NCBI GenBank assembly: GCA_028687435.1
Contig: JAQUAF010000004.1
Location: forward strand, 66,344 to 130,343
Direction: 5' to 3'
Length of the DNA stretch: 64,000 nucleotides
Source of the DNA: Verrucomicrobiia bacterium
GTDB lineage: Bacteria; Verrucomicrobiota; Verrucomicrobiia; JABWAM01
The position numbers and the translations under genes are program-made. Positions 20,637 to 64,000 of this stretch are shown here, one piece after another. The stretch's first letter is position 1; every line of letters begins with the position of its first letter. The notes beneath the pieces were generated by a model that saw only the letters and a program-made list of their open reading frames with translations, did not search any database and was not told where the DNA came from.

Positions 20637-20681
20637 CATTCAATCGTGCCGATGATACTGAAACTTTGAATTTCCCAAACA

Positions 20682-25440: not shown

Positions 25441-25451
25441 GTGCGGGAGCC

Positions 25452-37777: not shown

Positions 37778-37880
37778 GGCAAGGCGGTGCGGGAGCCCCG
37801 CCCTCCACTTGTCGGAAAATGATGGAGGGCGGGGCTCCCGCACCGCTTTCCCACAAATATTGAAGTTCCTTAACACTGAA
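37778..37880. repeat. Family-A hairpin repeat, complete copy plus tail
   Basis: GGCAAGGCGGTGCGGGAGCCCCGCCCTCC..GGAGGGCGGGGCTCCCGCACCGCTTTCCCACAAATATTGAAGTTCCTTAACACTGAA. Confidence 0.85.
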
Positions 37881-40236: not shown

Positions 40237-40244
40237 ATTAAATT

Positions 40245-40320
40245 AGGCCGGGCCCAAGGCCCGGCAACTGCTCGATCCGCCTTCGCCCAAGCGCTTCGGC
40301 GAGACAAGCGCTCGACGCAC
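40245..40320. repeat. Stop-codon-proximal GC hairpin (GGCCGGGCC-CAA-GGCCCGGC) plus family-B module
   Basis: AATTAGGCCGGGCCCAAGGCCCGGCAACTGCTCGATCCGCCTTCGCCCAAGCGCTTCGGCGAGACAAGCGCTCGACGCA, nearly identical to 62085-62160 and 624-676. Confidence 0.8.
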
Positions 40321-46960: not shown

Positions 46961-49900
46961 ATATCCTTGGACTTTTTCGGGACCTGAAAAAGCGGAACAT
47001 CTCCCTGTGGTGCGAGGCTGGCAAGCTGAAGGCTTTTCTCCCCAAAGGCGGATCCCTTGCCGCCGGGGAAAAGGGTTTTATCGATGAGAACAAACCGGAA
47101 ATTCTCCGGATCTTGCAGGAGAACGGAATCCAGGCAAAGGAGGATTTTCCCGGCCGCGAGATTTACCGGAATGTCCTTGCCAAGGGCAACTGGGGGCTGT
47201 CCTATGCCCAGGAACGGTTATGGTTTCTGGAGCAGTATGAAGGAGGAAGCTCGGCCTACAACGTCCCGCTCCTGCTCGATCTTGGCGCCGGCGTTGATCT
47301 TCCGGCTTTTAAGCAGAGCGTTGAGCGTGTGGCTGCACGTCACGAAGTCCTGCGGACGGTTTTCAGGAAAGACAGCGCCGGCAACGACTATCAATGCATC
47401 CTTCCCGGGACGCCGGCGATCCATGAAGAACGTCTTTTGGAAAAAGATCTCCCCGCCCGGTTGAAACAAAACATCAACTCCGTTTTTGATCTGGTCCATG
47501 AAGGCCCCTTGAAAGTCTGGCTCTTGCGCACCGAGCGCACGGTGTATGCCTTGATCAATCTGCATCATCTCGCCGTTGACGGTTGGTCCATGGGGATCCT
47601 GACCGCCGAACTGGAAAATTTTTACCAGGCCGGCATGGAAAACAGGGAGCCGAAACTGGCGGGACTCGACATTCAATACAAGGATTTTTCCTTGTGGCAA
47701 AAGGATTGTCTCTCGGGCGAAGAACTCGCCCGCAACCTTGCGTTCTGGAAAAAGCGTCTGGAGGGATATGAACCGTTGGATTTTCCGACGGATTTTCCAC
47801 GCCCCTCCCGTGTGGATTACGCCGGTGAATACGTTCCCTTTGAACTCGACGAGAAACTTTCCGTGTCGCTGAAGAAGCTGGCCGCCCAAAAAGGAACGAC
47901 TCTTTACGTCGTTTTGTTGTCCGCTTTTTACCTGCTGCTGCATAAATACACCGCTCAGAGTTCCCTGGTCGTGGGAACGGTGGCCGCGAACCGAAACCAT
48001 AAACAACTCGAAAATCTGATCGGTTTTTTTGTCAACAGCCTTGTCCTGAACATACAGATCGATCGGGAATCAACCTTTGACCGCCTGATCGACCAGGTCA
48101 AAAGCCTCCTGGTGGATGGGCAAACGTTTCAAGAGCTTCCTTTTGAGAAACTCGTTGAGCTTCTGAAATTGGAACACGACCCATCCCGTCACCCGATTTT
48201 CCAGATTATGTTTGGCGGAATGGGTTTTGGTGAAAACAAGCAAAGATTGTTCAGGGAAGTCCCGCTGGACAGCCATTATAAGCCCGCCAAATTCGATTTG
48301 AGCCTCTTTATCGATGAGCGCGATTCTGCGCTAAAGGGAACCTTCAATTATCGGGTGGCGCTTTTTAAGGAGGAAACCATCCGCCGGTTGAAGGATCATT
48401 TTGTCAACATCCTTGGCCAGATCGCCAAAAACAGCGCCGTCCCGATCAAGGAGATCAGCTTTCTTTCCAACCGTGAATACGAAACGCTGATTTACGAGTG
48501 GAACAAAACCGACGCAGCTTATCCGCAGAGCAGGACCATCATCGAACTTTTTGAGGAGCAAGCAAAAGAAAACCCCGATCAGCCAGCCATTCTTTGCCAG
48601 GGGGAATGCTTAACCTATCGGGAACTGAATGAAAAGACGAACCAACTGGCCCATACCATCCGCAAAGTCTTTCATGAATTTAACGGGACGCCCATTGCCG
48701 GCGATACGCTCATTGGAATCTATATCGACCGTTCGGTTGAAATGGCGCTGGCCATTCTCGGCATCTTAAAGGCCGGGGCCGCCTATGTCCCATTTGATTC
48801 GGCGGACCCGCAGGACCGGCTTAAATTCAAAGTCAATGACTGCGGTTGCAAAATGGTGCTGACCACCGCGAACAACCTGGAAGACCTGGTGTTTCTTGCC
48901 GAAACGGACACCATCCCCTTCTCGGTCGACGGGTACATGGATGAAATCCGGAAAGCGCCAACCAGCAACCCGGGCCGGGTCAATGGCCCGGAAAATCTGG
49001 CCTACATCATCTATACCTCGGGTTCCACGGGAAGGCCAAAGGGGGTCATGCTCGAACATCGCAGCGTCATCAATTACATTGAAAATTTCAAAAATGCCAC
49101 CGCCCCCGGAAAAAAAATCGTCGATCTGTCGAGCAGTCTCAGCTTTGACCTTACGGTGACAACCACGCTTGTCCCGCTGGCAACCGGAAGCACGATCGCC
49201 ATCTACCCGGGAAACTTGCAGGACATCGACGGCTACATGAAGCACCTGGCAGCCTGCGGCGTGACCTTTGTCAAAACCGTTCCCAGCCTGTTGTACCTGC
49301 TGCTGCAACGCGAAAAACCGGCCTCCCTTGCCGAAATATTCGTTGGTGGAGAAAAGCTCAAAAGGGAGTTGTTGGCCCATCGCGAAGGACTCACGATTTA
49401 TGACGAGTATGGCCCCACCGAAGCCACCGTGGGGACGACTCTCGCCAATGTTTTTCCGCTCAATCAAAACGGCATTGGCAAACCTTACCATCATTACAAG
49501 GTCTATATTCTGGACGCCGGCTTGAAACCGGTTCCCATCGGCGTCAAAGGCGAGCTTTTCATCGGCGGCGCCTGTCTGGCCAGGGGCTATTTTAACCGGC
49601 CGGAACTCACTCAAGAACGCTTTATTGCCAATCCGTTTGCCACGGCCGGGGAAAAACAAAAGGGATTAAACGCGAGGATCTATAAAACCGGCGATATCGT
49701 TCGCTGGCTGCCGGATGGCAACATCGAGTATCTCGGACGCAATGACGACCAGGTGAAAATCCGCGGTTTCCGGATCGAACTGGGGGAAATTGAGCAAAGG
49801 TTGTCCGAACATCCATCGATCGAACATTGCGCGGTCGTATGCAAAGAAGTGAACGCCAACAAGTATCTGATCGCCTATTATGTCGCTTCCCGGGAGTTGA

Positions 49901-52900
49901 CCTCCGACACTCTGCAAGATGACCTCAGCCGGATCCTTCCGGAGCATATGATCCCGTCCTGTTTTATCGCCCTGCCGGAAATGCCGCTGACCGTGAACGG
50001 GAAAGTCAACCATAAGGCCCTCCCCTCGCCTGATTTCAGGGGCGACGCCAACGACTTCCAACCTCCGCGCAATGATGCCGAGGCCCTCCTGTGCCGGCTG
50101 TGGAAAGAAATTTTGGGAATCGACAAAGTCGGCATCAACGACGATTTTTTCAAACTAGGCGGTCATTCCATCCTGGCCATCAAACTCTGCCATAGGATGA
50201 CCAAGGAACTGCAGCGGGAAATTCCAATTGCCGCGCTGTTTGAGAAAAAAACCATCAAGGGAATCTCCTCCGCCCTCCCGCTGTTCAAGCGTCTGGTTGC
50301 GATCAAGCATTATGCCGAAACCGAAGCCATCCTCTCCTTTGCCCAGGAACGCCTTTACTTTATCGAGGAGTATGAACGGGGCAGCAAGGCTTACAATATT
50401 CCGATCCTGCTGGAGCTCGACCCAAGCGTCGATCTGCGCGCATTGAGGGAATCGCTGCGGAGCATCGTCGATCGGCATGAAGTTTTGAGAACCGTTTTTG
50501 CGAAAAACGAGCAGGGAATCGTTTATCAGAAAGTCAAAACCGGCCCGCTGGAAATAGCGGAGATCAACGTGGCGGAGGCGGATTTCCCTCGGCAGGCAAG
50601 CGAACGCATCAATATCGCCTTTGACCTGCACCTCGAGTATCCAATACGGGCAACGCTGCTTTCCACCGATCGGCGAAGGTGTTTGCTGGTCAATATCCAT
50701 CACATCGCGTTTGACGGTTGGTCGGCGGATATTTTCTTGCGGGAACTGAACGCCTTTTACCGGCATCATCGCGAGGGCGTTCCCCACGGGCTTCCCCCCC
50801 TGGAAATCCAATACAAGGATTTTGCCCTCTGGCAACGGGATTGTCTTTCCGGGGAAAATCTGGAGCGGGAACTGGCTTACTGGAAAAACAATCTGCAAGA
50901 TTGCGAAACGCTGGAGCTTCCCGTTGACAAACCACGCCCCCCCGAAGTCGATTACCACGGCGATTATTTCGCATTCAATCTCGATGAGGATATTTCCCGT
51001 CAAGCGCGGCAATGCGCAAAAAAATATGGGACAACCCCTTACACAGTTTTTTTAAGCGCTTTTTACATCCTGCTTCACAAATACAGCGGCCAGAGCGATA
51101 TCGTCGTCGGCGCCCCCACAGCCAACCGGCATTATGCCCAACTGGAAAACCTCATCGGCTTTTTCGTGAATTCCACGCCCATGCGGTTCCGGCTGGCTCA
51201 GACGCCGGACATTAAAAGCCTGATGGAGAACACCGCGGCATCCCTGGCCGACATGCAGTCCCACCAGGATTTGCCATTCGAAAAACTGGTTGACCTCCTG
51301 GGCGTGCCCAAAGACCCGTCGCGACACCCGTTGATCCAGGTGATGTTCAGCGTGCAGAGCTTTGGATCCCTCGATCAAAAAAATGGGCCGGGCCTTTTCA
51401 AGAATATCGACACCACGGAGTCGTATAAAATCGCCAAATACGATTTAAGCCTCTTCATCGACGATTCCCAGGAAAGGTTTTCCTGCGGCTTTAACTACGC
51501 CACCAGCTTGTTCACGCGGGCCGCCATTGAAAGGATGGCCAGCCATTACAATGCCGTTTTGCGGGCCTTTTTATCGGGAGAAAATCGGCGGATCAAAGAC
51601 ATCAATCTCTTAACCGGTGACGAATTCGAGACGATCATCCGGAATTGGAACAAGACCGCCTTGGACTATGGGAGGGATCAAACGATTGCCGAAGCCTTCG
51701 AAGCCCAGGCGATGAAAACCCCCGGGCAGACCGCCCTGGTCTTTGGCGGGGAAAAATTGACCTATCGGCAACTCAACCAACAGGCCAACCAAATCGCGGC
51801 CGCGCTCAAAAAAGATTATCTCCAGAACTTCGGGGAAGCCATCAAACCCGGCGCCCTTGTCGGGCTTTACCTGGATCGCTCCGTCCAGATGATCGCCGCC
51901 ATTCTCGGCATTCTCAAAGCCGGCGCCGCCTACGTTCCTTTTGACCGCGCCGATCCCGCCGGGCGGCTGCAATACAAAATCGAGGATTGCGCCTGCAAGA
52001 TGATGCTGACCTCCTCGGCATGCGCGGCGGATCTGGCCTTTTTGCCGCCCGGACGTCCGGCACGCTGGGAGATCGACCGGCATACGACGGAAATCGCCGC
52101 CCAGCCGGATTCCAATCCGAACCGCATCAATCGCGCCACGGATCTGGCCTATGTCATCTATACCTCGGGTTCGACCGGCCAACCCAAAGGGGTGATGCTG
52201 GAGCACTACGGAGTGATCAACCTGGCGGCGTCCCACCGCCAAAGTTTCAACATCGGGGAACAATCGACGATTTTGCAATTTGCGCCGGTGAGTTTCGACG
52301 CCTCGGTCTCGACGCTGTTCACCACGCTGCTCAACGGCGGCACGCTTTGCCTTTGCCCGGAAGAGACGAGGAAAGACACGCAAAAATTGGGTGAACTGAT
52401 CGTCCAGAACCGGGTGACCCTGATCGATATTCCAGCCAGGTTGCTGGAGGTTTTCCCCCGGGATCTCGACCTGTCGCATTTGCGTTGCATCATCACGGCC
52501 GGGGAGGTCTGCGACCAAAAGACCATGGACTACTGGAGCGGCAAAGTGAGGTTGATCAACGCCTACGGGCCAACGGAAGGCGCCGTCTGCGCGACCTTTT
52601 CGATCCATGCGAAAGGGAAAAGCAACAAGAACATCGGCAAACCGATTGGAAACAAGAAAGTTTATGTTTTGAACAGCGACCTCACCCCCCTGCCGGTGGG
52701 GGCGCCCGGGGAGTTGTACCTTGGCGGGGACGGACTGGCGCGGGGTTATCTGAACCGGCCGGAGATCACGCGGGAGCGTTTTATGGCAAATCCCTTTCTA
52801 AAGGAAGGCGGACCCACGCCGCGTGAGGCGAGGATTTACAAGACCGGGGATCTGGTGCGCTGGCTGGACAACGGCGAGCTGGAATTCTTGGGACGAAACG

Positions 52901-55900
52901 ACGACCAGGTGAAAATTCACGGCTACCGGATCGAACTCGGGGAAATCGAACAACGGCTCTCGGCCATCGAGGGAATCTCCCTCTGCGCGGTAAAAGTGTT
53001 TGAAAGGGAAAACTCCAAGTGCCTATGCGCCTATTATTCGCGAATCTCAAAAATATCGGAAAACCAAATCAGGAATCAGCTGGCCGCCGTATTGCCCGAT
53101 TACATGACGCCGGCCTATTATGTCGAGCTCGAGTCGTTTCCCCTGAACACTTCCGGCAAGATTGACCGGAAAGCCTTGCCGTCCCCGGATCTCAGCCTCG
53201 AAAGGGCCGCTTATACCGCCCCTGGCGCCCCTCTGGAAAAAACGCTTTGTGAGACTTTCCAGAAGTTGCTTCACGTGGATAAAATCGGGGTGAATGATGA
53301 TTTCTTCAAAAATGGCGGCGATTCGATTTTGAGCATTCAGCTTTGTTCAGCCCTGAAAAAGGCGGGGATTTCCTGCGCCGTCAAGGATCTCTTCAAAAAT
53401 CCAACGGTCAAAAAGCTCGCCAATCATCTTTCCTCCCCCCAAGGGCCGGCTATTCCGATCATCCGCGAAACCGGCGTGTTGGAAGGGGAATTTGAACTGC
53501 TGCCCATCCAAAAATGGTTTTTTGACAAAGTGGAAAGCGGAAGCTTCGGACGCCCCAACCACTGGAACCAAAGCTTTATGTTGAAGGTTCCGCCGCTTGA
53601 TCCGGAGGCGATAAAAAGGGCCATCAGCGCTCTGACCGGCCATCACGATATGCTCCGGGCCACTTTTAAAGGGAGGACCCAGAAATACAACCCGGCGATT
53701 GCCGTTCCTAAATTAAAGCTTCTCGATCGAAGCGGATTGGCGGACGAAAAACTTTTTGCCATCCTCACCGAATGGCAGAGCGGTTTTGACATTGAGAATG
53801 GGCCTCTTTGGCAGATCGGCTACATCACCGGCTATCCCGACGGCGGCGCCAGGTTGTTTTTCGCTTTTCATCATCTGATCATCGATGCGGTCAGTTGGAG
53901 AATCATCAGCGATGATTTCAGAAGAGTTTATGACGGCGAGCCTTTGAATGAAAAGGGAAGCAGTTACCGGCAATGGGTCCATGAAATGGGGCATTACCGG
54001 CAAACACACAGGGAAGAAGCCGCCTATTGGGAAAATGTCCTGGGCTCGCTTCCCGCCCACCCCATCGCCAATGACCAACACAAAAGCATTCAGCGCACAC
54101 CGTCATTTCGGGAAGTCCGCTTTGAAAAGGAATTCACCGCCCAACTGCTTAAAGAAGCCCATGCCGCTTATGCCACCTCCATCAATGACCTGCTGCTGAC
54201 TGCCGCGGCCTATATGCTTAAAGACTGGCTGGGCGGCGGCCTTCAGGGGATCACCTTGGAAGGACACGGACGGGAAAATATCAATCCTGCCATCGACCAC
54301 AGCCATACCGTGGGCTGGTTCACGAATACTTATCCCGTAAAACTGGAGGTCGGCCGGGATATGTCTGCAACGATCATGGGGATAAAAGAAAACCTGACCC
54401 GCATTCCGAACAAGGGAATCGGTTTCGGGGCCTGCTTGTCCGGCAACAAAAAGCAAAGGCTGCCGCCGATAACCTTTAATTATCTCGGTCAACTCGACGG
54501 CGCCGACGACGTCAATACCTGGCCCTTTGCGGCCGAACCAGCGGGACAAAGCACCGCGGCGGAAAATAGCGACACCAGCCTGATTGCCATGAATGGGTTT
54601 GTCGCGGAGGGAGAACTCCGTTTCCAGTTCATGACCAACCTGGGAGAACAGGCAACCGCCCAATGCGCCCAAAACTTTGAGCGGACGCTCAAAACGGTGG
54701 TTGAGCATTGTCTTGCCGCGCGGCGAACCGGCGCCCCGGCCGTCCAACAAACGGCGGAATTCGAGTATGTGCCCTGCCTTTTATTGAACCAGGAAGCCCG
54801 CTCGAATAAATTGATGATCATGGTTCATCCGGATTCCGGTTATGAGGCCTATATGGCTTCGCTGTATCCTGCGCTCTCCAGTGACATCAAGGTCATTCTT
54901 ATCGATAACTACTACAAAAAAGTTTATCTGCAAAACGGCGTCACGTTGGCCAAAAGCGATCTCAACGGCTTCAAGGATTTGGCGGATTATTACATCAAAC
55001 TCCTGTTTGCCAAAGAAAGGGAGCTGTTGGAACAATCCGCCTGTTCACTGCTGGGTTACAGCTTTGGCTGTCCGATCGCATGGGAAATGCACCGCATCCT
55101 CAAGGGCCATGCCATCGCCGTTAACGACCTCTACATGGTCGACCCCCTGCTGCCGTCCTTGCTGAAAACCAAACGACGGCTGAATTGCTTCTCATGGTAC
55201 GAGGAATATCTTCCGGCGCCGACGGAAACGCCCGTGATCCATTTCCATTGCACGGTTCCCGATCCGTCCATTCCGGGTTATGCCGAGCATTTCACGGACA
55301 AAGAAAATTATTCCCTGCGATCCATCGCCCAAAACCTGCGGGAATATGAAATAAAGTGCCACCATACCGGCATCCTCAACAATCCCGACTTTATAAAAAC
55401 TTTCCAAACGACGGCGAACAGCGGTTGGGTCATTAAGGATGAAAGCGCAAGACAGACCACAGGCAGAGGCGGCGACATCCAACGGATTGAACTCGCGGTA
55501 AGGGAAATCCTGTCAAAGATTATGAGGCCGGAAAAAGAATTGGCCGGCGCAGAAAACCTTTTCCACCAGGGGTGCGCTTCCATCCAGACGTTGTCGATCC
55601 TGGCCATGGTCAATGATCGATTCCGGCTGTCCATGTCTCTGCCTGACATCATCCGAAACTTTACCATCGACGGCCTGGCCGCCTTGATCGCCAAGAACGA
55701 GGTTGTCCGAAAAAGCGATCCCGTCTGGGAACCTGTGGTGTTCAAAAGCCGGAATCCGGATGCCGCCAATCTGTATTTCCTCCCCGGTTTTATCGGATCG
55801 GTGGGTTCCTACAGTCGAATCTGCTCCGGCTTGTCCAGGCTTTTCAATGTCATCTTCATGGAACCCAAGGGAATGTATGGCGATATGACGCCTTTTGCCT

Positions 55901-56550
55901 CCCCGGCCGAAGCGCTCGCCGTTTATGCAAGCGAGATCACCCAAAGAAATAAGATCGATTCTCCCGTTTTCCTGGCCGGCCACTCGGTGGGTTCGGTTCA
56001 TTCATTGGATCTGGCGATCAAACTGGAGGAAATGGGATACCGGAAGGTGGGCCTGATCAATATCGACGGTTACTTGCACAAGATGGAAAGTCTCATGCAA
56101 TCGTTCAGAACCCTCAATTTGGATGCGGCCCTGGTGGCGGCGATAAAAAGATTCTTCAAGGAAAACCCGGCAAAGGAATCCGCCCTGGCGCCGCAGGATC
56201 CGGTGCGGGAAATCGCCTCGATTTTGTTCCCATCGCCGGAGGTGAGCCGGGATTACGCCTTAAGGGTTGCCCTGGGATACCGCAATATCTGGCATCAGCA
56301 AATTGACGACATCATCAAATACAACGAGCCCTCCCGGAAATTCGCCGGCAAGCCCCTGGCGTTCATCACTCTGGATTCGGATAAAAAAATCCAGGAGATG
56401 ATCCTGCGCTCATGCCATGAGCGCTACGCCGGCAAGTTTCAACTCCATTATATTGAGGGAGACCACTTGAGTTGCATTATCAAGCAGGAACTCATCGAGA
56501 AAGTTGTCAATCTTGTCTCCCAATGGAAAGAGTCCTCAAGCGTTTTTTAG
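46957..56550 (+). CDS. Non-ribosomal peptide synthetase, two modules plus termination region (dock-C-A-T-C-A-T-E-TE-T-TE)
   Basis: 3197 aa. N-terminal TubC-like docking domain (LGLFRDLKKRNISLWCEAGKLKAFLPKGG). C motifs HHLAVDGWS and HHIAFDGWS. A cores IIYTSGSTGRPKGV and VIYTSGSTGQPKGV. T domains FFKLGGHSIL and FFKNGGDSIL. Epimerisation domain motifs E1-E7 (PIQKWFF; HHLIIDAVSWRI; EGHGRE; HTVGWFTNTYP; FNYLGQ). Thioesterase GYSFG, a degenerate carrier-like segment (LFHQGCASIQ) and a second alpha/beta-hydrolase TE (GHSVG). Confidence 0.92.
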   Translation: MNILGLFRDLKKRNISLWCEAGKLKAFLPKGGSLAAGEKGFIDENKPEILRILQENGIQAKEDFPGREIYRNVLAKGNWGLSYAQERLWFLEQYEGGSSAYNVPLLLDLGAGVDLPAFKQSVERVAARHEVLRTVFRKDSAGNDYQCILPGTPAIHEERLLEKDLPARLKQNINSVFDLVHEGPLKVWLLRTERTVYALINLHHLAVDGWSMGILTAELENFYQAGMENREPKLAGLDIQYKDFSLWQKDCLSGEELARNLAFWKKRLEGYEPLDFPTDFPRPSRVDYAGEYVPFELDEKLSVSLKKLAAQKGTTLYVVLLSAFYLLLHKYTAQSSLVVGTVAANRNHKQLENLIGFFVNSLVLNIQIDRESTFDRLIDQVKSLLVDGQTFQELPFEKLVELLKLEHDPSRHPIFQIMFGGMGFGENKQRLFREVPLDSHYKPAKFDLSLFIDERDSALKGTFNYRVALFKEETIRRLKDHFVNILGQIAKNSAVPIKEISFLSNREYETLIYEWNKTDAAYPQSRTIIELFEEQAKENPDQPAILCQGECLTYRELNEKTNQLAHTIRKVFHEFNGTPIAGDTLIGIYIDRSVEMALAILGILKAGAAYVPFDSADPQDRLKFKVNDCGCKMVLTTANNLEDLVFLAETDTIPFSVDGYMDEIRKAPTSNPGRVNGPENLAYIIYTSGSTGRPKGVMLEHRSVINYIENFKNATAPGKKIVDLSSSLSFDLTVTTTLVPLATGSTIAIYPGNLQDIDGYMKHLAACGVTFVKTVPSLLYLLLQREKPASLAEIFVGGEKLKRELLAHREGLTIYDEYGPTEATVGTTLANVFPLNQNGIGKPYHHYKVYILDAGLKPVPIGVKGELFIGGACLARGYFNRPELTQERFIANPFATAGEKQKGLNARIYKTGDIVRWLPDGNIEYLGRNDDQVKIRGFRIELGEIEQRLSEHPSIEHCAVVCKEVNANKYLIAYYVASRELTSDTLQDDLSRILPEHMIPSCFIALPEMPLTVNGKVNHKALPSPDFRGDANDFQPPRNDAEALLCRLWKEILGIDKVGINDDFFKLGGHSILAIKLCHRMTKELQREIPIAALFEKKTIKGISSALPLFKRLVAIKHYAETEAILSFAQERLYFIEEYERGSKAYNIPILLELDPSVDLRALRESLRSIVDRHEVLRTVFAKNEQGIVYQKVKTGPLEIAEINVAEADFPRQASERINIAFDLHLEYPIRATLLSTDRRRCLLVNIHHIAFDGWSADIFLRELNAFYRHHREGVPHGLPPLEIQYKDFALWQRDCLSGENLERELAYWKNNLQDCETLELPVDKPRPPEVDYHGDYFAFNLDEDISRQARQCAKKYGTTPYTVFLSAFYILLHKYSGQSDIVVGAPTANRHYAQLENLIGFFVNSTPMRFRLAQTPDIKSLMENTAASLADMQSHQDLPFEKLVDLLGVPKDPSRHPLIQVMFSVQSFGSLDQKNGPGLFKNIDTTESYKIAKYDLSLFIDDSQERFSCGFNYATSLFTRAAIERMASHYNAVLRAFLSGENRRIKDINLLTGDEFETIIRNWNKTALDYGRDQTIAEAFEAQAMKTPGQTALVFGGEKLTYRQLNQQANQIAAALKKDYLQNFGEAIKPGALVGLYLDRSVQMIAAILGILKAGAAYVPFDRADPAGRLQYKIEDCACKMMLTSSACAADLAFLPPGRPARWEIDRHTTEIAAQPDSNPNRINRATDLAYVIYTSGSTGQPKGVMLEHYGVINLAASHRQSFNIGEQSTILQFAPVSFDASVSTLFTTLLNGGTLCLCPEETRKDTQKLGELIVQNRVTLIDIPARLLEVFPRDLDLSHLRCIITAGEVCDQKTMDYWSGKVRLINAYGPTEGAVCATFSIHAKGKSNKNIGKPIGNKKVYVLNSDLTPLPVGAPGELYLGGDGLARGYLNRPEITRERFMANPFLKEGGPTPREARIYKTGDLVRWLDNGELEFLGRNDDQVKIHGYRIELGEIEQRLSAIEGISLCAVKVFERENSKCLCAYYSRISKISENQIRNQLAAVLPDYMTPAYYVELESFPLNTSGKIDRKALPSPDLSLERAAYTAPGAPLEKTLCETFQKLLHVDKIGVNDDFFKNGGDSILSIQLCSALKKAGISCAVKDLFKNPTVKKLANHLSSPQGPAIPIIRETGVLEGEFELLPIQKWFFDKVESGSFGRPNHWNQSFMLKVPPLDPEAIKRAISALTGHHDMLRATFKGRTQKYNPAIAVPKLKLLDRSGLADEKLFAILTEWQSGFDIENGPLWQIGYITGYPDGGARLFFAFHHLIIDAVSWRIISDDFRRVYDGEPLNEKGSSYRQWVHEMGHYRQTHREEAAYWENVLGSLPAHPIANDQHKSIQRTPSFREVRFEKEFTAQLLKEAHAAYATSINDLLLTAAAYMLKDWLGGGLQGITLEGHGRENINPAIDHSHTVGWFTNTYPVKLEVGRDMSATIMGIKENLTRIPNKGIGFGACLSGNKKQRLPPITFNYLGQLDGADDVNTWPFAAEPAGQSTAAENSDTSLIAMNGFVAEGELRFQFMTNLGEQATAQCAQNFERTLKTVVEHCLAARRTGAPAVQQTAEFEYVPCLLLNQEARSNKLMIMVHPDSGYEAYMASLYPALSSDIKVILIDNYYKKVYLQNGVTLAKSDLNGFKDLADYYIKLLFAKERELLEQSACSLLGYSFGCPIAWEMHRILKGHAIAVNDLYMVDPLLPSLLKTKRRLNCFSWYEEYLPAPTETPVIHFHCTVPDPSIPGYAEHFTDKENYSLRSIAQNLREYEIKCHHTGILNNPDFIKTFQTTANSGWVIKDESARQTTGRGGDIQRIELAVREILSKIMRPEKELAGAENLFHQGCASIQTLSILAMVNDRFRLSMSLPDIIRNFTIDGLAALIAKNEVVRKSDPVWEPVVFKSRNPDAANLYFLPGFIGSVGSYSRICSGLSRLFNVIFMEPKGMYGDMTPFASPAEALAVYASEITQRNKIDSPVFLAGHSVGSVHSLDLAIKLEEMGYRKVGLINIDGYLHKMESLMQSFRTLNLDAALVAAIKRFFKENPAKESALAPQDPVREIASILFPSPEVSRDYALRVALGYRNIWHQQIDDIIKYNEPSRKFAGKPLAFITLDSDKKIQEMILRSCHERYAGKFQLHYIEGDHLSCIIKQELIEKVVNLVSQWKESSSVF
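51646..52958. repeat. 1313-bp near-identical direct repeat (copy 2) covering the adenylation domain of NRPS2 module 2
   Basis: See copy 1 (45128..46440). Protein-level difference is a single residue (GGPTLREA vs GGPTPREA). Confidence 0.9.
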
Positions 56551-56714
56551 AAGATGCGCGAAAAGGATCGCGCCATTCGCAATGCTGATTTTCCCAACAG
56601 TCTTTTTCTCACCGCACAGTCTTCAAAAAAATCCAAACTTTAATCTTGAACTTGGCGCATTGCCCCTTGACCCTTGAATCTTAAACCGCGAGGCCGCATT
56701 GCCTTGCCAGAACC

Positions 56715-57023
56715 ATGTTTAACTATCATTTTCAAGAAGGCCCGGAAAAAACGCTTGTCATTGTCATGGCAGGCGAACTGGATACCCTTGCGGCACAACC
56801 GATCCAAAAAGAGATTGAGCTTTATAAGGGAAAAAACTACGAGAAAGTCTTGTTCGAAATGTCCAATCTGACCTACATGGCCAGTTCCGGGCTGCGGGTT
56901 ATTTTTTATGCCCAAAAGAATTTGGGTGAAAATGTAAAAATTGAAATCAAAGGGGCCAAGGAACTGGTGGCTAAAATACTGCAAATCAGCGGCATGTCGA
57001 AATATGTGACGACCGTTCCGTAG
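56715..57023 (+). CDS. STAS-domain protein (anti-sigma-factor antagonist, SpoIIAA-like)
   Basis: 102 aa. VIVMAGELDTLAAQPIQKEI...LTYMASSGLRVI is a typical STAS fold sequence with a phosphorylatable Ser region. Confidence 0.65.
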   Translation: MFNYHFQEGPEKTLVIVMAGELDTLAAQPIQKEIELYKGKNYEKVLFEMSNLTYMASSGLRVIFYAQKNLGENVKIEIKGAKELVAKILQISGMSKYVTTVP

Positions 57024-57105
57024 CGCGGGAACAAGTCGTCCAGAGGCCGACCCTCCATTGATTTCCAATTGGAGGAGAATGGAGAGCGGGACTCCTGCAC
57101 GGTTT

Positions 57106-57131
57106 GGCTTCAGGTAGTCTGAAGCCTGATT
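57106..57131 (+). terminator. Putative intrinsic terminator between convergent STAS and MFS genes
   Basis: GGCTTCAG-GTAGT-CTGAAGCC hairpin followed by TGATTTTATGG. A degenerate family-A repeat lies just upstream (57048-57104). Confidence 0.4.
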
Positions 57132-58601
57132 TTATGGTTCCGGCTTGTCCGGGTTGGGGATAGACGCCAAATTTTTCATCGCCGATCGGATCACGGCATA
57201 GCCGGATAAAATGGTTAACCCGGCAACCAGAAAGATCAAACCCCGGCTGGCGGCCATCAGTTGGCCGAGAATCAATGCGCTCGCAAACCACATGAGGGAG
57301 TAGATCTGTCCCAACCCGCCCATCACAACCCCCTGTTCGCCCGGTTTGGCAATATTGGAGTAAAGCGTGGTAAGTCCCAATTGGACAAACGGCAGGGCGA
57401 GAAAAAACAACAGAGCCACAGTCCAGAGTTCAAAGGGCAGAAGCGAGCCTCTTCTTAAATCGGAGACAAACAGGAAGAGGAACAGCAGGCCTTGGGCCAG
57501 AAGGCTGAACAAAATCAACTTGCGGTAATCGAAGTGTTTCAGGGCGCCGGGCTGAAGAAAAAAAACGCTTACCCCCAGGGACAGGGCCACAAAAATAAAA
57601 AACACCCCGATGTCAGACGGGGAATATCCGAAGACATGGGCCAGATAAAGGGAAATGGATTGGAGAAAAAGCCCGAAGCCGAAATAAAAAAAAGAATAGC
57701 CCAGGTTCAACTTTTTCAGCGCGGTTGACCGCAGCAAATAGGTGATGGACGCAAAAATGTTCCGCCATGGCGAAGCCGTTTGATCATTCAAGACACAGGG
57801 CGCAGTCTCGGCAAAAACAAAAAACAGCATGACCCCATTCACCAGCGACAAAAACGCGGCCAGAAAAAAGGGAAGAGCCAGGGGAAAAGGAAACGGTATC
57901 AAATGAATCCCGGAGGAAATGGCCGGCCCCAGGATAAACCCGGCAATATTGGCGATCACGGGCCATTTGAAATTGCTGAGCTTGCTCCGCGTGTCCGCGC
58001 TGATATCGGAAATAACCGCATTGGCAATGACCAGGGTGCCGCAACAAAAACCGCTGACAGCCCGGGCCGACAAAAAAAGCAAATAACTGCCGATGACGAT
58101 GCTCCATGCTCCCAGGAAATAGCCGGCGACAATGCCGGCCAAACCGGCCAAAATCAATTTTCGCCGTCCGTAAAAGTCCGACAGCCCGCCAAGAATCGGC
58201 ATGCCGAAAAAACTCAAAAGAGGGAAGGCTGCAAAGGCCATCCCGTAAAGAATATCCCGGGACAAGAAAATCTCATCGGCTTGGATAAGCCCTTGGACGG
58301 GGTCAAGAAACAGCTTGGGCATGAGGGGATAAATGATAGCCACCCCCAGCGCATCGATAAAAATCAGCGAATAAAGCGCAAACAGCCTTTTGTTCAAAAT
58401 GCCCCTAGCCTTCGCAGAGATAAAAGTGTTTTTCCCACTGTTTAAAATGTTTCTTTTGAAACAGGCTTCCAGACACAAACCAGCGCCTCCAGCAAACCAA
58501 CGACAAGCAACACCAGGAATGTTTTTTTCATGGAAGGGACGCCCATCAGAGTTTTTCGCCGCTTTGTTTCCCTTCATAGCGCCATCCAGGGCGGAATTCA
58601 A
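57132..58601 (-). CDS. MFS transporter (DHA/TetA-like drug:H+ antiporter family), probable exporter for the NRPS product
   Basis: 12-14 predicted TM helices. Motif-A-like GGLSDFYGRRKLILAG. The start is uncertain: the ORF maximum is 58601, and internal ATGs are possible. Confidence 0.75.
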   Translation of the reverse strand: MNSALDGAMKGNKAAKNSDGRPFHEKNIPGVACRWFAGGAGLCLEACFKRNILNSGKNTFISAKARGILNKRLFALYSLIFIDALGVAIIYPLMPKLFLDPVQGLIQADEIFLSRDILYGMAFAAFPLLSFFGMPILGGLSDFYGRRKLILAGLAGIVAGYFLGAWSIVIGSYLLFLSARAVSGFCCGTLVIANAVISDISADTRSKLSNFKWPVIANIAGFILGPAISSGIHLIPFPFPLALPFFLAAFLSLVNGVMLFFVFAETAPCVLNDQTASPWRNIFASITYLLRSTALKKLNLGYSFFYFGFGLFLQSISLYLAHVFGYSPSDIGVFFIFVALSLGVSVFFLQPGALKHFDYRKLILFSLLAQGLLFLFLFVSDLRRGSLLPFELWTVALLFFLALPFVQLGLTTLYSNIAKPGEQGVVMGGLGQIYSLMWFASALILGQLMAASRGLIFLVAGLTILSGYAVIRSAMKNLASIPNPDKPEP

Positions 58602-58635
58602 TCATGAACCGCCGGCAGCGCATTCCCAGGTACCT

Positions 58636-58989
58636 TCAATTCGCGACGCAACGAAATTTTTTTCGATTTTTTTGAAAATCCTTGATCAAAAATCGGATGT
58701 GATCCATGAGCTCCTTTTGGCGCTTTGTCAGACACTCAACATCGACCCGGTAACGTTCGACAGACAACAGACGTGGTTCCGCAAGCCGTTCGGCATCCGC
58801 ATCCAGCTTGGCATGAATGGTTTCAACGGCAAGTTTGGGAATGGCATTCTCGAAAAAATATTCGCGCCGGATGAATTGCCTGCTGGTCTCAATCGACCAA
58901 TCGAGATGACAAATCCGATCGCCGTCCAGATAAACCCCCAATCCCGTGCCTCCGCAGGATTCCTCCGATGTCGGCCCCTCAAGATGCAA
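58636..58989 (-). CDS. Hypothetical small protein upstream of the MFS transporter (weak call)
   Basis: 117-aa ORF on the same strand, ending 35 nt before the MFS ORF. Protein-like composition, no recognised domain. Competes with a low-complexity plus-strand frame. Confidence 0.25.
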   Translation of the reverse strand: MHLEGPTSEESCGGTGLGVYLDGDRICHLDWSIETSRQFIRREYFFENAIPKLAVETIHAKLDADAERLAEPRLLSVERYRVDVECLTKRQKELMDHIRFLIKDFQKNRKKFRCVAN

Positions 58990-59141
58990 AAGCGACGATT
59001 TATCGGACTCAAAACGCGATTGCAGACAAGCTCAATTTGCCCCCCCCTGCGCCCGCTCATTGCCCGGCTTGCGCGGAATTGTATTGGCCTCCCATATCAG
59101 TTATATTTTCCTGATGTTCAGAAAACTCAAATCCGCGGCAT

Positions 59142-59796
59142 GTCTCCCCCCATCGTTCATGACGCCGCCAAAAAATCCTGTCAAAAAATTCAATCGCAAC
59201 TTTTCTTTCACCCAAAAACTTTGAATTCCCCAGACATTCAATCAAAAAAACCGACATCACGCCGCATTGCATGGTTCTTTGTGATCCTTGGATTGTCGTG
59301 GTCTGTTTGGGTCAGTCCAAAAACCCCGGTTGAATTCTTTGATGCCGCTGTCCGGGACGCAAACATCCTCACCAAGCGCGACATGGAATTGTTCAATAAA
59401 ATTGACCCGGCAAAGGCGGCTGACGTCCGGAAAATTGAAGAGATGAATTCCCTCCGCGCCCGCATGGAACGGATTTCGCTCGTCCACGATTGGTTGAACC
59501 ATCCGAAATACGTCCGCGAACAACGATCCGACATCGTCTGGGGATTCTATACGGCCCATTCAGGCACGGAAACTGTCCTTTTGGCAAAAAACCCGGAATA
59601 TCTCTCTTTATCGGAGAAATTTGAGACGCTCAAAACGGAGGTCAAGTCCAGGAAACTTTTAAAGGCAGCCAGCAGCCTCAGTCATGAACTGGAAAAAGAC
59701 CCTCGTCGCAAAACGGATGACTTCCGCATACAAATGCAACGGTTCCTATTGAGAGAATTTCAGGCCCGCATTTTCTGGTGGGGGAACAACCCATGA
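59142..59796 (+). CDS. Hypothetical membrane-anchored protein (weak call)
   Basis: C-terminal part of track ORF 58390..59796, taken from the in-frame ATG at 59142. A TM helix (IAWFFVILGLSWSVWV) is followed by a charged helical domain. Its stop overlaps the next gene (ATGA). Confidence 0.3.
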
Positions 59797-60242
59797 CTCC
59801 CTTTCTTGCCGATGTCGTGTGGCCGGCCCTCATTCTTTCCGTCCGCCTCCTGGCATGGTGGTGCATCGCCGCGAGTCTCGTTCTTGAAGCGATGGCGCTC
59901 TGGCATTTCATGGGAATCCGTCCCGTCAAGGCATTCGCGGCATCCGTCGCAATGAACACCGTTTCCGCATTTTTCGGCGCCCTGCTTCTGCCCATGGCCG
60001 GAATCTGGTGGGAAACGCTCGCAAGCTTTCCCTGTCTTGCGTGGCTGGGACACGGAACATTCCATCCCATTTCCTGGATTGCCACCTGCTTGATTGCCAT
60101 CGCAATAAGCACCCTCATCGAAACATTCGTCCTCTGGCTCGTTTTTCTCATGCCATGGACACGCCGTCTTGCGGCGGTGATTCTGCTCGCCAACGGGGCC
60201 ACGGTCATCCCCGCCGTTTTGGCCATCTTCTTCTTGAAATGA
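59793..60242 (+). CDS. Hypothetical integral membrane protein (4 TM)
   Basis: MTPFLADVVWPALILSVRLLAWWCIAASLVLEAMALWHFMGI... is strongly hydrophobic. Translationally coupled to the upstream ORF. Confidence 0.4.
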   Translation: MTPFLADVVWPALILSVRLLAWWCIAASLVLEAMALWHFMGIRPVKAFAASVAMNTVSAFFGALLLPMAGIWWETLASFPCLAWLGHGTFHPISWIATCLIAIAISTLIETFVLWLVFLMPWTRRLAAVILLANGATVIPAVLAIFFLK

Positions 60243-60390
60243 AAAATTGAGACCGTGGCAATGACCGCTTTCGCGGGAATGACGAAGAAGAAAGAATGAC
60301 GAAGAAAGAAAAGAAATGATGAATTCGGGTAAAATCAGATGGAACCCTGCCAAAGACATTTTCCCCCGTCGGGGATAGAGTCGGAGAAAG

Positions 60391-60774
60391 CCAAAGTCCA
60401 AAGAGGCTCTTGCAAAACTACGATACTTGGCGTTGCAGCGGATTTTTTTCGCTGGGAAGGCGTGGAGCTTGGGCAATCCCTGCAACGGTGCCGCTTGTGC
60501 GGCACAAGCGATCCCGCCACAGCGGGACCGCCAGCGAAAACAAAGACGCGCAACCCTCTGGGCGACAACCGCTTTGGCCAACTCCGGCGTTGACCTCCTC
60601 GACTTCGCTCGGAACAAGTCGGCAGCTTGTCTCGCCGAAGCGCTCGGGCGAAGGCGGACCTGTCTCGCCGTAGCTTCTGAGCGAAGGCGGATCAAAGCCC
60701 ACTTTGGGGATTTTCCCGCCTCATCGCCTTGGATTTGGCCATAGCGGTTCATCGCGCCAAGCATCGTAGTTTTG
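60391..60774. repeat. 384-bp element bounded by 30-bp terminal inverted repeats (MITE-like); interior built from family-B repeat modules
   Basis: Left end GAGGCTCTTGCAAAACTACGATACTTGGCG (60391-60420). Right end (60745-60774) has the reverse complement GAGGCTCTTGCAAAACTACGATGCTTGGCG, a 29/30 match. The interior contains ..CTGTCTCGCCGAAGCGCTCGGGCGAAGGCGGA.. in inverted orientation. Confidence 0.65.
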
Positions 60775-60851
60775 CAAGAGCCTCCAAAGGCTGAAATTTG
60801 GGGAGGGCCCTTCGGCTTGATCTCCGCATTTTTGAATTTTTAATTGTGAAG

Positions 60852-62018
60852 ATGATGAATAAAAAAACGCATCGGGTGGCGGTGGTTGGCTGCGGCGCCC
60901 TGGCGCAGGGGGCGCATCTGCCCCACTGCCAGAGAAATCCGCGCGTGGAACTGGTGGCAACCTGCGACATCGACGCCGTCAACGCCGAGGCATGCCGGAA
61001 GAAATTCGGCGCCCAACGCGCTGAAAGCGATTGGCGGCGCGTGGTGGAAGCCCGGGACATCGATCTTTGCATCCTCTGCACCCACACCAATTTGCGCGGC
61101 GAATTCATCATCCCCGCCTTGGAATCCGGCAAGGCGGTTTACACCGAAAAACCACTGGCGCCCAATTTCCGCGAAATGACCGATATTGTCAAAGCCACCC
61201 GCCGCACCGGCCGCCCGGTCTGCGTCGGACACAACCGCCGGTCCAGTCCGGCCGTGCTGGAATTCAAACGATTGGCGGACAAAGCGCTCCACGGCGCCTC
61301 CTCCCGGCCCCCCACCGTAAATCGCATGGAACAGCGAAAGCTTTTGCCGGAGGAAAAACAGTTGCAAATCCTGATGCGGATCAACGATGACAGCCGCAGT
61401 TGGAAACCGTGGATTTTTTGGGATGCGGAAGGCATTCTCTTCGCTGAAATGGTTCACTTCATTGATCTGGCTCTCTGGCTCAACCCGGGACATCCTGTCC
61501 GCGCTTTTGCCGAAGGATCCCCCCGCGGCAATTTCAGCCTATTGCTCCGGTTCAACGATGGTTCCATCACCACCATCCAGCATACCATGGTGGGACACTT
61601 CGATTATCCCAAGGAACTGTTTGAAGCCACCGCCGGCTTCATCACCGTGGGCATGGATCAGCATCTGGAAGTCCGTCAATGGGGAATGAAAGACGAACCC
61701 GCGCAAAAATTTTTCCCCTACGCCCATGGTTGTGATTGGGCCGTCAAACAAGGCATGGCCGGTTATCTCCAGGAACTGGAAGCCGAAGTCCGGCAATCTG
61801 AGAAAACAGGAAAACAAGCCCGCTGGCTCAATGTGAACAAGGGCCACTACGAACAATTGGACCGCTTCCTCACCCATCTGGAAGGCGGGGGAGAAAACCC
61901 CTGTCCGGTGGATGGCGCGGTGGCGGTTAACCGGGTGGCCATGAAATTGCTGGAATCTGTCCGGCTCGGTCTGCCAGTAGCCATCACCCCGGAAGACTGG
62001 CATATTCCTGAACTCTGA
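60852..62018 (+). CDS. Gfo/Idh/MocA family NAD(P)-dependent oxidoreductase
   Basis: HRVAVVGCGALAQGAHLPH Rossmann start; EKPLA motif. The track start 60798 is an over-extension. Confidence 0.8.
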   Translation: MMNKKTHRVAVVGCGALAQGAHLPHCQRNPRVELVATCDIDAVNAEACRKKFGAQRAESDWRRVVEARDIDLCILCTHTNLRGEFIIPALESGKAVYTEKPLAPNFREMTDIVKATRRTGRPVCVGHNRRSSPAVLEFKRLADKALHGASSRPPTVNRMEQRKLLPEEKQLQILMRINDDSRSWKPWIFWDAEGILFAEMVHFIDLALWLNPGHPVRAFAEGSPRGNFSLLLRFNDGSITTIQHTMVGHFDYPKELFEATAGFITVGMDQHLEVRQWGMKDEPAQKFFPYAHGCDWAVKQGMAGYLQELEAEVRQSEKTGKQARWLNVNKGHYEQLDRFLTHLEGGGENPCPVDGAVAVNRVAMKLLESVRLGLPVAITPEDWHIPEL

Positions 62019-62076
62019 CGAGAATCAGCCTCAACCCAACTGAAGCGAAACCTCGCAATTCAAAAGAAAAAATTTA

Positions 62077-62240
62077 AATTAGGCCGGGCCCAAGGCCCGG
62101 CAACTGCTCGATCCGCCTTCGCCCAAGCGCTTCGGCGAGACAAGCGCACGACGCAAAAACGATCACTCAAAGGCGGGATACAACCGCCCAGAGCCGTTCC
62201 GCCTTCGTCTCTCATCGGACTACGGCGAGACAGGCCGGGA
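62077..62240. repeat. Long composite repeat (stop-proximal hairpin, family-B module and shared 80-bp module), paralog of 11866..12020 and 40245..40320
   Basis: AAATTAGGCCGGGCCCAAGGCCCGGCAACTGCTCGATCCGCCTTCGCCCAAGCGCTTCGGCGAGACAAGCGC..ACGATCACTCAAAGGCGGGATACAACCGCCCAGAGCCGTTCCGCCTTCGTCTCTCATCGGACTACGGCGAGACAGGCCGGGAGG. Confidence 0.8.
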
Positions 62241-62322
62241 GGCCGGCCCTCCATCATTTCGCAGCAAATGGAGGGCGGGGCTCCTGCACCGCTTTTTCCA
62301 ACAAACATTGAAATTCCTGACC
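62241..62322. repeat. Family-A repeat (left arm partial) plus tail
   Basis: GGCCGGCCCTCC..AAATGGAGGGCGGGGCTCCTGCACCGCTTTTTCCAACAAACATTGAAATTCCTGACC. Confidence 0.8.
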
Positions 62323-62384
62323 GACCCTCGCCTAAAGGCGAGGGGTTTACCCATCCCAAACAAGAGACTCTAAAATCCCGAATC

Positions 62385-63799: not shown

Positions 63800-63870
63800 T
63801 CCCCTCCCTCCATTTTCTTCCAGTTGGAAGTAGATGGAGGGCTGGCCTCCTGACCTGTCTCGCCGAAGTC
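63800..63870. repeat. Degenerate family-A-like repeat
   Basis: CCCTCCCTCCATTTTCTTCCAGTTGGAAGTAGATGGAGGGCTGGCCTCCTGACCTGTCTCGCCGAAG. Confidence 0.5.
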
Positions 63871-64000
63871 CATGGGACAAAGGAACACCCAGGGGTAAAA
63901 AGGTACACCTTCGCAAAAGTGCATTTTATGACCGCAACGGGTATATGTGTACAGGAGGCTACCGTTATTTTTCGTACCATTGTGAATGTACCATGCCAAA

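What the first reader, a model, noticed from the sequence alone, without database searches (positions are those of the whole stretch)
60391..60774. 384-bp element flanked by 30-bp near-perfect terminal inverted repeats (MITE-like) between the membrane-protein pair and the Gfo/Idh/MocA gene
GAGGCTCTTGCAAAACTACGATACTTGGCG (60391-60420) matches the reverse complement of 60745-60774 at 29/30 positions. These arms are unrelated to the family-A arms, while the interior is assembled from inverted family-B modules plus a CACAGCGGGACCGCCAGCG segment that also occurs at 2083-2103. This suggests a second class of non-autonomous element that has captured family-B sequence, or alternatively a very long structured RNA.
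Basis: seen in the sequence. Interest (0 to 1): 0.5.

Follow-up and report, generated by a model that had tools for sequence, protein, structure and literature searches.

The report
Small ISL3-like MITE insertion
The flagged sequence is most likely a 378-bp non-autonomous transposon (a MITE) with insertion-sequence-type ends and an 8-bp target duplication, sitting between two genes of an uncultured Verrucomicrobiae bacterium; this is an ordinary kind of genome parasite, not a new system.

Summary
The 29/30 inverted repeat is real, but it lies at 60403-60432 / 60755-60784, about 10-12 bases right of the stated coordinates.

Trimming two bases from each arm gives a 378-bp element (60405-60782). 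Its 28-bp terminal inverted repeats (TIRs) begin GGCTCTT. It is flanked by an 8-bp direct repeat, TCCAAAGA / TCCAAAGG (7/8; p about 0.003 by random-flank simulation). GGCTCTT ends plus 8-bp duplications are the signature of ISL3-family insertion sequences and of a published ISL3-type MITE. IS6-family ends (GGCTCTGTTGCAAA, also 8-bp duplications) are a close second.

The element:
- encodes nothing recognisable;
- is 60% G+C inside a 42-46% G+C spacer;
- has an interior of nested palindromes, including two inverted copies of the genome's "family B" hairpin repeat.

No second copy was found in the window, in GTDB representative genomes, in JGI metagenomes or in IMG/VR. However, the source genome itself could not be searched. 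An independent k=31 assembly of the same population stops inside both TIRs, as it does at known repeats, which hints at further copies.

There is no Rfam match, no recombinase gene nearby and no conservation in relatives. The structured-RNA and invertible-switch readings are therefore unsupported.

Verdict: a new member of a known kind; low interest.

The parts
60397..60404 (.). Left copy of the putative 8-bp target-site duplication, TCCAAAGA
   Evidence: Read from the sequence. It matches 60783-60790 at 7/8. A comparable repeat arises with random flanks in 0.34% of trials.
60405..60432 (+). Left terminal inverted repeat, GGCTCTTGCAAAACTACGATACTTGGCG (28 bp)
   Evidence: 27/28 complementary to 60755-60782. 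It starts with GGCTCTT, as ISL3-family IS ends do.
60432..60554 (.). Interior block 1. An imperfect inverted repeat (60432-60455 / 60531-60554) encloses the palindrome 60492-60510 and the hairpin TCCCGCCACAGCGGGA. It is present only next to the left TIR, so it looks like an insertion into an originally longer palindrome.
   Evidence: Self-versus-reverse-complement blastn; folds. 60512-60536 resembles 2078-2101 at 23/25.
60567..60749 (.). Interior block 2. An inverted repeat (60567-60593 / 60721-60749, about 83%) extends the symmetry of the outer TIRs inward and encloses the family-B copies.
   Evidence: folds.
60618..60658 (-). Family-B repeat, copy 1, inverted relative to the other window copies
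   Evidence: 37/41 identical to 631-671, 40276-40316 and 62112-62152 (pairs I8-I10); orientation count.
60661..60693 (-). Family-B repeat, copy 2, more diverged, in tandem with copy 1
   Evidence: 28/33 to 629-661, 40274-40306 and 62110-62142 (pairs I22-I25), family D1.
60755..60782 (-). Right terminal inverted repeat (reverse complement GGCTCTTGCAAAACTACGATGCTTGGCG)
60783..60790 (.). Right copy of the putative 8-bp target-site duplication, TCCAAAGG

Best explanation
The element is a non-autonomous DNA transposon (MITE) of 378 bp at 60405-60782. A DDE transposase supplied in trans, most likely of the ISL3 family and less likely IS6, would bind the 28-bp terminal inverted repeats and insert the element at a staggered 8-bp cut. 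Repair of that cut would leave the flanking TCCAAAGA/TCCAAAGG duplication, in which one base has since mutated. The element landed in the A+T-richer spacer between a membrane-protein gene (ends 60242) and a Gfo/Idh/MocA oxidoreductase gene (starts 60855), about 70 bp upstream of the latter, and it disrupts no gene. Its interior carries no gene. It is a stack of nested palindromes, including two copies of the genome's dispersed family-B hairpin repeat. Shown here: the TIRs, the flanking direct repeat, the IS-type terminal motif, the lack of coding capacity and the compositional contrast with the spacer. Inferred: the transposase family, mobility in trans, the existence of other copies, and whether the family-B units were captured or inserted later.
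For: - Inverted repeat: 29/30, none expected by chance.
- Flanking repeat: with the ends set at GGCTCTT.../...AAGAGCC the flanking 8-mers are TCCAAAGA and TCCAAAGG. This is the only GGCTCTT/AAGAGCC pair in the window. Random flanks give an equivalent direct repeat in 0.34% of trials.
- Published ISL3 ends: ISArsp7 IRL GGCTCTTCGCGG... with an 8-bp DR (PMC6305408). Microcystis ISL3 elements and a 187-bp, 31-33-copy MITE share GGCTCTTCG ends and 8-nt DRs (PMC11448079). An 8-bp DR is called classical for ISL3 (PMC7643977).
- My own survey of loci annotated as ISL3 transposase genes: GGCTCTT(C/T) ends in Arthrobacter, Sinomonas, Rhodococcus, Pseudomonas IS1411, M. avium, an ISPfr2-like element and E. 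faecium IS1476. Perfect 8-bp duplications were found in six of them, including CAAAGAAA and CCTTTGCC, which resemble the target here.
- No coding capacity: no Pfam hit for any interior ORF, and no predicted protein among 5.8 billion clusters resembles any of the six frames.
- Composition: the element is 60% G+C, the flanking spacer 42-46%.
- Independent assembly: two 100%-identical k=31 contigs from SRR22315507 stop at 60429 and 60760, inside the two TIRs. Their outer ends stop exactly 30 nt (52902) and about 28 nt (62101) into known repeats. A k=31 graph built from the window alone has no branch there, so sequence from outside the window probably shares at least 30 nt with each terminus.
- Relatives: Gfo orthologues in relatives have 64-150-bp upstream spacers without the element.
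Against: - No second copy was found anywhere. The TIR is unique in the 64-kb window. The hits in GTDB genomes (26), JGI metagenomes (7) and IMG/VR (7) are all single-arm chance matches, mostly in rsmH or a phage coding sequence.
- No transposase gene is present in the window, and no autonomous element with this TIR was found.
- The duplication is 7/8, not perfect, and the boundary was chosen after seeing it.
- Identity to ISL3 ends stops after 7 bases. The next block, TGCAAAA, looks more like IS6-family ends (GGCTCTGTTGCAAAA), but only with a 2-nt gap. The parent family is therefore not settled.
- The exact contig stop positions imply that 5-7 flanking bases are shared as well, which a simple second copy does not predict.
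- No empty site could be examined.
Confidence: 0.65

Rival explanations
1. A local composite of the genome's palindromic intergenic repeats (a REP/BIME-like cluster). Its outer inverted repeat would have arisen by inverted duplication or template switching, not by transposition. The flanking 8-mer repeat and the GGCTCTT ends would then be coincidence.
For: The genome is crowded with dispersed hairpin repeats that stack in arrays: family A at 7 sites and family B at 8 or more, with arrays at 593-792, 11906-12106, 25336-25536 and 62074-62330. The interior of this element contains two family-B units and several further nested palindromes. No other copy of the arms has been found.
Against: This reading does not predict an 8-bp direct repeat exactly abutting the inverted repeat (p about 0.003). 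Nor does it predict termini that match the conserved IS-end motif in the register set by that repeat. The arms have no similarity to families A or B. The Logan contigs break inside the arms, as at dispersed repeats.
Confidence: 0.15
2. A long structured non-coding RNA, or a cis-acting RNA leader, of about 380-400 nt closed by a 30-bp helix. It would be transcribed between the membrane-protein gene and the Gfo/Idh/MocA gene.
For: The predicted fold is very stable: -210 kcal/mol, z about -10. On the - strand the single arm mismatch becomes a G-U pair, and the - strand fold has 9 G-U pairs against 3 on the + strand.
Against: There is no Rfam family at gathering or at E<=1. Both strands fold equally well, as expected for DNA palindromes. 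Near-perfect long helices are typical of repeats rather than of functional RNAs. No promoter-like site was found. The element is absent upstream of the orthologous gene in relatives at 70-74% protein identity. No homologue is available, so covariation cannot be tested. The flanking direct repeat is left unexplained.
Confidence: 0.07
3. An invertible DNA switch (inverton). A site-specific recombinase would flip the 322-bp segment between the 30-bp inverted repeats to turn a promoter for the downstream Gfo/Idh/MocA gene on or off.
For: The geometry fits: inverted repeats of about 30 bp around about 320 bp, ending 70 bp upstream of a gene. The short-read assembly graph is tangled exactly at the arms.
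Against: No tyrosine or serine recombinase gene was found in the window: 30 of its larger ORFs were scanned against Pfam and none matched one. No sigma-70-like promoter lies inside. Inversion predicts contig ends at 60424 or 60432 and at 60763 or 60755, not at the observed 60429 and 60760 (reasoned from the sequence; simulation). The 8-bp direct repeat and the IS-type ends are not features of invertons.
Confidence: 0.05

Closest known systems
ISL3-family MITEs, e.g. the 187-bp MITE of Microcystis aeruginosa PCC 7806 (PMC11448079), and ISL3 insertion sequences such as ISArsp7, IS1411 and IS1476
   Same: The termini begin GGCTCTT. The flanking direct repeat is 8 bp. The TIR length (28 bp) is within the range seen for ISL3 ends. 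There is no transposase gene. The location is intergenic and the element folds as a stem-loop. The target is of the same A-run type as other ISL3 duplications (CAAAGAAA, CCTTTGCC).
   Different: Identity to ISL3 ends stops after base 7 (GGCTCTT-GCAAAAC versus GGCTCTTCG...). The element is twice as long as the Microcystis MITE. The interior is unrelated and contains host repeat modules. Only one copy is known, and no cognate ISL3 element was found.
IS6 (IS26) family ends: IS6100 GGCTCTGTTGCAAAAATCG, IS1216 GGTTCTGTTGCAAAGTTT
   Same: GG termini, an 8-bp target duplication, and two shared blocks, GGCTC and TTGCAAAA (13 of the first 16 bases).
   Different: The match needs a 2-nt deletion between the blocks. 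An ungapped match shifts the end to 60403, which leaves only a 4-bp flanking repeat. IS6 elements move through cointegrates. I recall no IS6-derived MITEs, but this was not checked in the literature.
REP/BIME-type intergenic palindromic repeats
   Same: The interior is a mosaic of short G+C-rich hairpins that also occur elsewhere in the genome.
   Different: REP units lack long terminal inverted repeats and target duplications. The outer arms here are not part of families A or B.

Membership tests
MITE (generic) | Terminal inverted repeats | tested here: met
   27/28 (29/30 with the two palindromic TSD bases); none expected by chance.
MITE (generic) | Target-site duplication directly outside the TIRs | tested here: met
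   TCCAAAGA / TCCAAAGG, 7/8. Random-flank simulation gives p about 0.003 after allowing several boundaries and lengths.
MITE (generic) | Small size and no transposase gene | tested here: met
   378 bp. Interior ORFs have no Pfam hit. The six-frame translation matches no predicted protein.
MITE (generic) | Several copies in the genome | tested here: inconclusive
   Unique in the 64-kb window and absent from the collections searched, but the source genome is not in those collections. k=31 contigs of the same population stop inside both TIRs, as at known repeats.
MITE (generic) | Empty site in a related strain | not testable with these tools
   The nearest relatives have 70-74% identity in the Gfo protein and lack upstream synteny.
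ISL3 family (as parent) | Ends beginning GGCTCTT(C/T) | tested here: met
   The element starts GGCTCTTG. Seven surveyed ISL3 elements start GGCTCTT(C/T) (L044-L046, L050-L052, L055); others start GGCTCT(A/C), GGTTCT(A/T) or GG(T/G)TC(A/T)T. Literature.
ISL3 family (as parent) | 8-bp direct repeats | tested here: met
   8 bp, 7/8 identical. ISL3 examples with perfect 8-bp DRs: and PMC7643977.
ISL3 family (as parent) | A cognate ISL3 transposase with matching TIRs in the same genome | not testable with these tools
   No transposase in the window. No IS with this 18-mer exists in the GTDB representative genomes.
IS6/IS26 family (as parent) | TIR GG(C/T)(T/A)CTGTTGCAAA in register with an 8-bp duplication | tested here: inconclusive
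   The match needs a 2-nt gap (GGCTC--TTGCAAAA). The ungapped register destroys the 8-bp repeat.
Invertible promoter (inverton) | A recombinase gene nearby, an internal promoter, and both orientations in the population | tested here: not met
   No recombinase among the 30 larger window ORFs scanned against Pfam. No promoter-like site. The contig ends do not fall where inversion predicts. Orientation in the reads could not be examined.
Known structured RNA families (Rfam 15) | Covariance-model match | tested here: not met
   Nothing at gathering score in the window. Only chance-level hits at E<=1 in 59500-61500.

The most novel reading that the evidence does not exclude
The element is the first seen member of a Verrucomicrobial MITE family whose cargo is the host's own hairpin repeats (family B). 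A transposase would then be spreading REP-like, possibly terminator- or RNase-target-type, modules around the genome. Alternatively, this copy has been domesticated as a long double-stranded RNA or insulator element between the two genes.
Probability: 0.08. Interest if true: 0.45.

Novelty: new member of a known kind. Interest (0 to 1): 0.18.

Why it matters
If correct, this adds one more small non-autonomous transposon to the catalogue, in a poorly sampled lineage (an uncultured Verrucomicrobiae MAG). It also shows that this repeat-rich genome hosts at least one transposase-dependent repeat class besides its hairpin families A and B. Practically, it marks a place where short-read assemblies of this organism break. 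It is also a spacer that should not be mistaken for a regulatory RNA. It opens no long-standing question.

Tried and rejected
- Rfam at gathering and at permissive thresholds: nothing.
- TIR scans: GTDB genomes, 26 single-arm hits, many in Bacteroidales, the one read through (L028) lying in an rsmH-like methyltransferase CDS; JGI metagenomes, 7 chance hits; IMG/VR, 7 hits in one phage CDS. blastn of the TIR against plasmids found nothing relevant.
- Six-frame translation of the element against 5.8 billion protein clusters, to catch spurious ORFs from other copies: no hit at E<=10.
- Orthologous loci of the Gfo gene (L035-L040): the upstream region is not syntenic, no element is present, and no similarity to the spacer was found. 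The empty-site test was therefore impossible.
- Pfam scan of 30 window ORFs for transposases or invertases: none.
- Promoter and terminator scan: nothing useful.
- G-U asymmetry between strands: weak, 9 versus 3.
- A transposon-circle junction or a simple inversion as the cause of the Logan contig ends: the predicted break positions (60426, 60424 or 60432) do not match the observed 60429 and 60760.
- pWW0 and E. faecium DO plasmid 1 fetched to obtain an ISL3 transposase: none annotated there. The sequence was obtained instead through the ISArsp7 end.
- I ran no further search on looking for a Verrucomicrobial ISL3 partner, because only the top 120 hits are listed and success was unlikely.

Full report
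**Observation.** The window sequence GAGGCTCTTGCAAAACTACGATACTTGGCG and a 29/30 reverse-complement partner are real. No dinucleotide shuffle of the window gives any match, and the arms occur nowhere else in the 64 kb.

The interior holds two tandem copies of the window's "family B" repeat, at 60618-60658 and 60661-60693. Both are inverted relative to six + strand copies elsewhere. They cover only about a quarter of the interior.

The rest of the interior consists of other nested inverted repeats: 60432-60455/60531-60554, 60567-60593/60721-60749, and a palindrome at 60492-60510.

The quoted 19-mer CACAGCGGGACCGCCAGCG is exact only at 60518-60536. The sequence near 2084 is one base shorter.

**Setting.** The window comes from an uncultured Verrucomicrobiae MAG: the neighbouring Gfo/Idh/MocA protein is 100% identical to an NCBI MAG protein on a 173,647-bp contig. 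The region is ordinary chromosome, carrying RecA, adenylate kinase, MutL, glutamate mutase, two large NRPS genes and an MFS transporter. None of the 30 larger ORFs scanned against Pfam matched a transposase or site-specific recombinase.

The element sits in a 612-bp spacer between a small membrane-protein gene (59793-60242, +) and the Gfo/Idh/MocA gene (60855-62018, +). The element is 60% G+C. The spacer on either side is 42-46%.

**What the ends look like.** Immediately outside the repeat the sequence reads ...AGTCCAAAGA|GGCTCTT...AAGAGCC|TCCAAAGGCT.... With the termini set at GGCTCTT/AAGAGCC the element is 378 bp (60405-60782), has 28-bp TIRs (27/28), and is flanked by TCCAAAGA and TCCAAAGG.

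I tested the flanking repeat by simulation. Boundaries were allowed to be trimmed by 0-3 bases and repeat lengths to range from 6 to 10. An equally good direct repeat then arose in 0.34% of trials.

**Comparison with known IS ends.** Ends that begin GG, together with 8-bp duplications, point to two IS families.

ISL3, from the literature:
- ISArsp7 has IRL GGCTCTTCGCGGTTGGTGGTGAAT and an 8-bp DR (PMC6305408).
- Microcystis ISL3 elements and a 187-bp MITE with 31-33 copies share GGCTCTTCG ends and 8-nt DRs (PMC11448079).
- An 8-bp DR is described as classical for ISL3 (PMC7643977).

ISL3, from my own survey. I extracted the ends of loci annotated as ISL3 transposase genes:
- Arthrobacter, Sinomonas and Rhodococcus: GGCTCTTCGCG..., with perfect 8-bp duplications.
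- Pseudomonas IS1411: GGCTCTTCGCATTTAAGGGTGTAG.
- M. avium and an ISPfr2-like element: GGCTCTTC(G/C)CAGATGAGGGTGTAG.
- E. faecium IS1476: GGCTCTT(T/C)GTCAAAT.
- ISSau8, a Parageobacillus element and ISAcma10: GG(C/T)TCT... or GG(T/G)TC..., with duplications TTTTTTAT, CAAAGAAA and TAAATAAT.

The window element shares GGCTCTT ungapped, in exactly the register fixed by the 8-bp repeat.

IS6. This family is the second candidate. IS6100 (GGCTCTGTTGCAAAAATCG) and IS1216 (GGTTCTGTTGCAAAGTTT) share the blocks GGCTC and TTGCAAAA with the element, but only across a 2-nt gap. The ungapped alignment moves the end to 60403 and leaves only a 4-bp flanking repeat.

I therefore favour ISL3 but do not regard the parent family as settled.

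**Coding capacity and RNA.** No interior ORF hits Pfam. A concatenated six-frame translation finds no predicted protein among 5.8 billion clusters, even at E<=10. Rfam gives nothing.

The region folds very stably, but equally so on both strands: -209.9 and -211.6 kcal/mol, z about -10. That is what nested DNA palindromes do. The - strand has slightly more G-U pairs (9 versus 3), which is weak evidence at most. No sigma-70-like promoter was detected.

**Copy number.** This is the weak point. Exact scans with the core of the TIR gave:
- 26 single-arm hits in GTDB representative genomes. Many are in Bacteroidales, and the one read through (L028) lies in an rsmH-like coding sequence.
- 7 single-arm hits in JGI metagenomes.
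- 7 hits in IMG/VR, all in one phage gene.

None had a partner arm. The source genome itself did not turn up, so its own copy number could not be measured.

Indirect evidence comes from an independent k=31 assembly (Logan, SRR22315507) of the same population:
- Contig L041 equals window 52902-60429 and contig L001 equals 60760-62101. Both are 100% identical to the window, and both stop inside the TIRs.
- Their other ends calibrate the behaviour. 52902 is exactly 30 nt inside an exact NRPS repeat that ends at 52931. 62101 is about 28 nt inside the family-B repeat that starts at 62074.
- A k=31 de Bruijn graph built from the window alone has no branch near the element.

The simplest reading is that other sequence in that sample shares at least 30 nt with each terminus. 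That would mean further copies, or a full-length IS with the same ends.

There is a caveat. The exact stop positions imply that 5-7 flanking bases are shared too. This would need a target preference, or insertion into a repeated target. It fits neither a simple inversion nor a circle junction.

**Relatives.** The closest Gfo orthologues are only 70-74% identical. Their upstream neighbours differ, and their upstream spacers are 64-150 bp without any similar sequence. The element is therefore not a conserved leader of this gene, and no empty-site comparison is possible.

One relative (L039) does keep the Gfo-then-enolase-superfamily gene order, with a 35-bp spacer. The window has about 250 bp there, all of it family B/A repeats. 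This shows that the genome's repeats are insertions into otherwise short spacers.

**Conclusion.** The best-supported explanation is a MITE: a 378-bp non-autonomous DDE-transposon derivative with ISL3-like (or IS6-like) ends and an 8-bp target duplication, inserted in an intergenic spacer and carrying host hairpin repeats. Whether the family-B units were captured or inserted later cannot be decided from a single copy.

Rival explanations, with my estimated probabilities:
- A locally generated palindromic repeat cluster: about 0.15.
- A long structured RNA: about 0.07.
- An invertible switch: about 0.05.

This is a new member of a known kind and of low general interest.

Noticed in passing
window 727-792, 4384-4449, 9050-9115, 12008-12073, 25438-25503, 37783-37848, 62229-62294: Family A is a dispersed hairpin with a 29-bp near-perfect stem (AAGGCGGTGCGGGAGCCCCGCCCTCCATT ... 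AATGGAGGGCGGGGCTCCCGCACCGCCTT), usually followed by a T-run. It looks like a mobile or duplicated intrinsic-terminator-type repeat, with 7 copies in 64 kb.
   Followed up: partly
window 593-792, 11906-12106, 25336-25536, 40238-40319, 62074-62330, 63833-63871: Family B (TCCGCCTTCG...CGGCGAGACA), a third module (11906-12002 = 62146-62242, 95%) and family A stack in modular arrays downstream of + strand genes, in the manner of BIME-like mosaics. No RAYT-type or other transposase gene is present in the window.
   Followed up: partly
window 62019-62330 versus L039 7189-7222: The spacer between the Gfo/Idh/MocA gene and the following enolase-superfamily gene is 35 bp in a relative. In the window it is about 250 bp and consists entirely of repeats B, D11 and A. 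This serves as a distant 'empty site' for those repeats.
   Followed up: partly
window 40565-56550: Two large NRPS genes (2131 and 3197 aa) contain long exact internal repeats (45128-45702 = 51646-52220; 46348-46413 = 52866-52931). This points to recent module duplication or gene conversion, and short-read contigs break there.
   Followed up: partly
window 20488-20643: A 33-nt inverted repeat (91%) with a 90-nt spacer lies between the convergent genes 19391-20467 (+) and 20682-21344 (-). It could be a second small IR-flanked element or a bidirectional terminator.
   Followed up: no
window 60277-60310: A tandem purine-rich 17-mer (GAATGACGAAGAAGAAA, GAATGACGAAGAAAGAA) lies in the spacer just upstream of the element.
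   Followed up: no
window 2068-2105: An intergenic hairpin, CCGCCTTCGTCCCGACACAGCGGGACCGCAGCGG, combines a family-B-like 5' half with the TCCCG.CACAGCGGGA hairpin that also occurs inside the element (60512-60536). This suggests a further small hairpin module shared between repeats.
   Followed up: partly
L044-L061 (ISL3 elements) and L043, L053 (IS6 elements): ISL3-family and IS6-family ends resemble each other (GGCTCTT(C/T)GTCAAAT versus GGCTCTGTTGCAAA), and both families make 8-bp duplications. End sequence alone is therefore a poor discriminator between the two families.
   Followed up: partly
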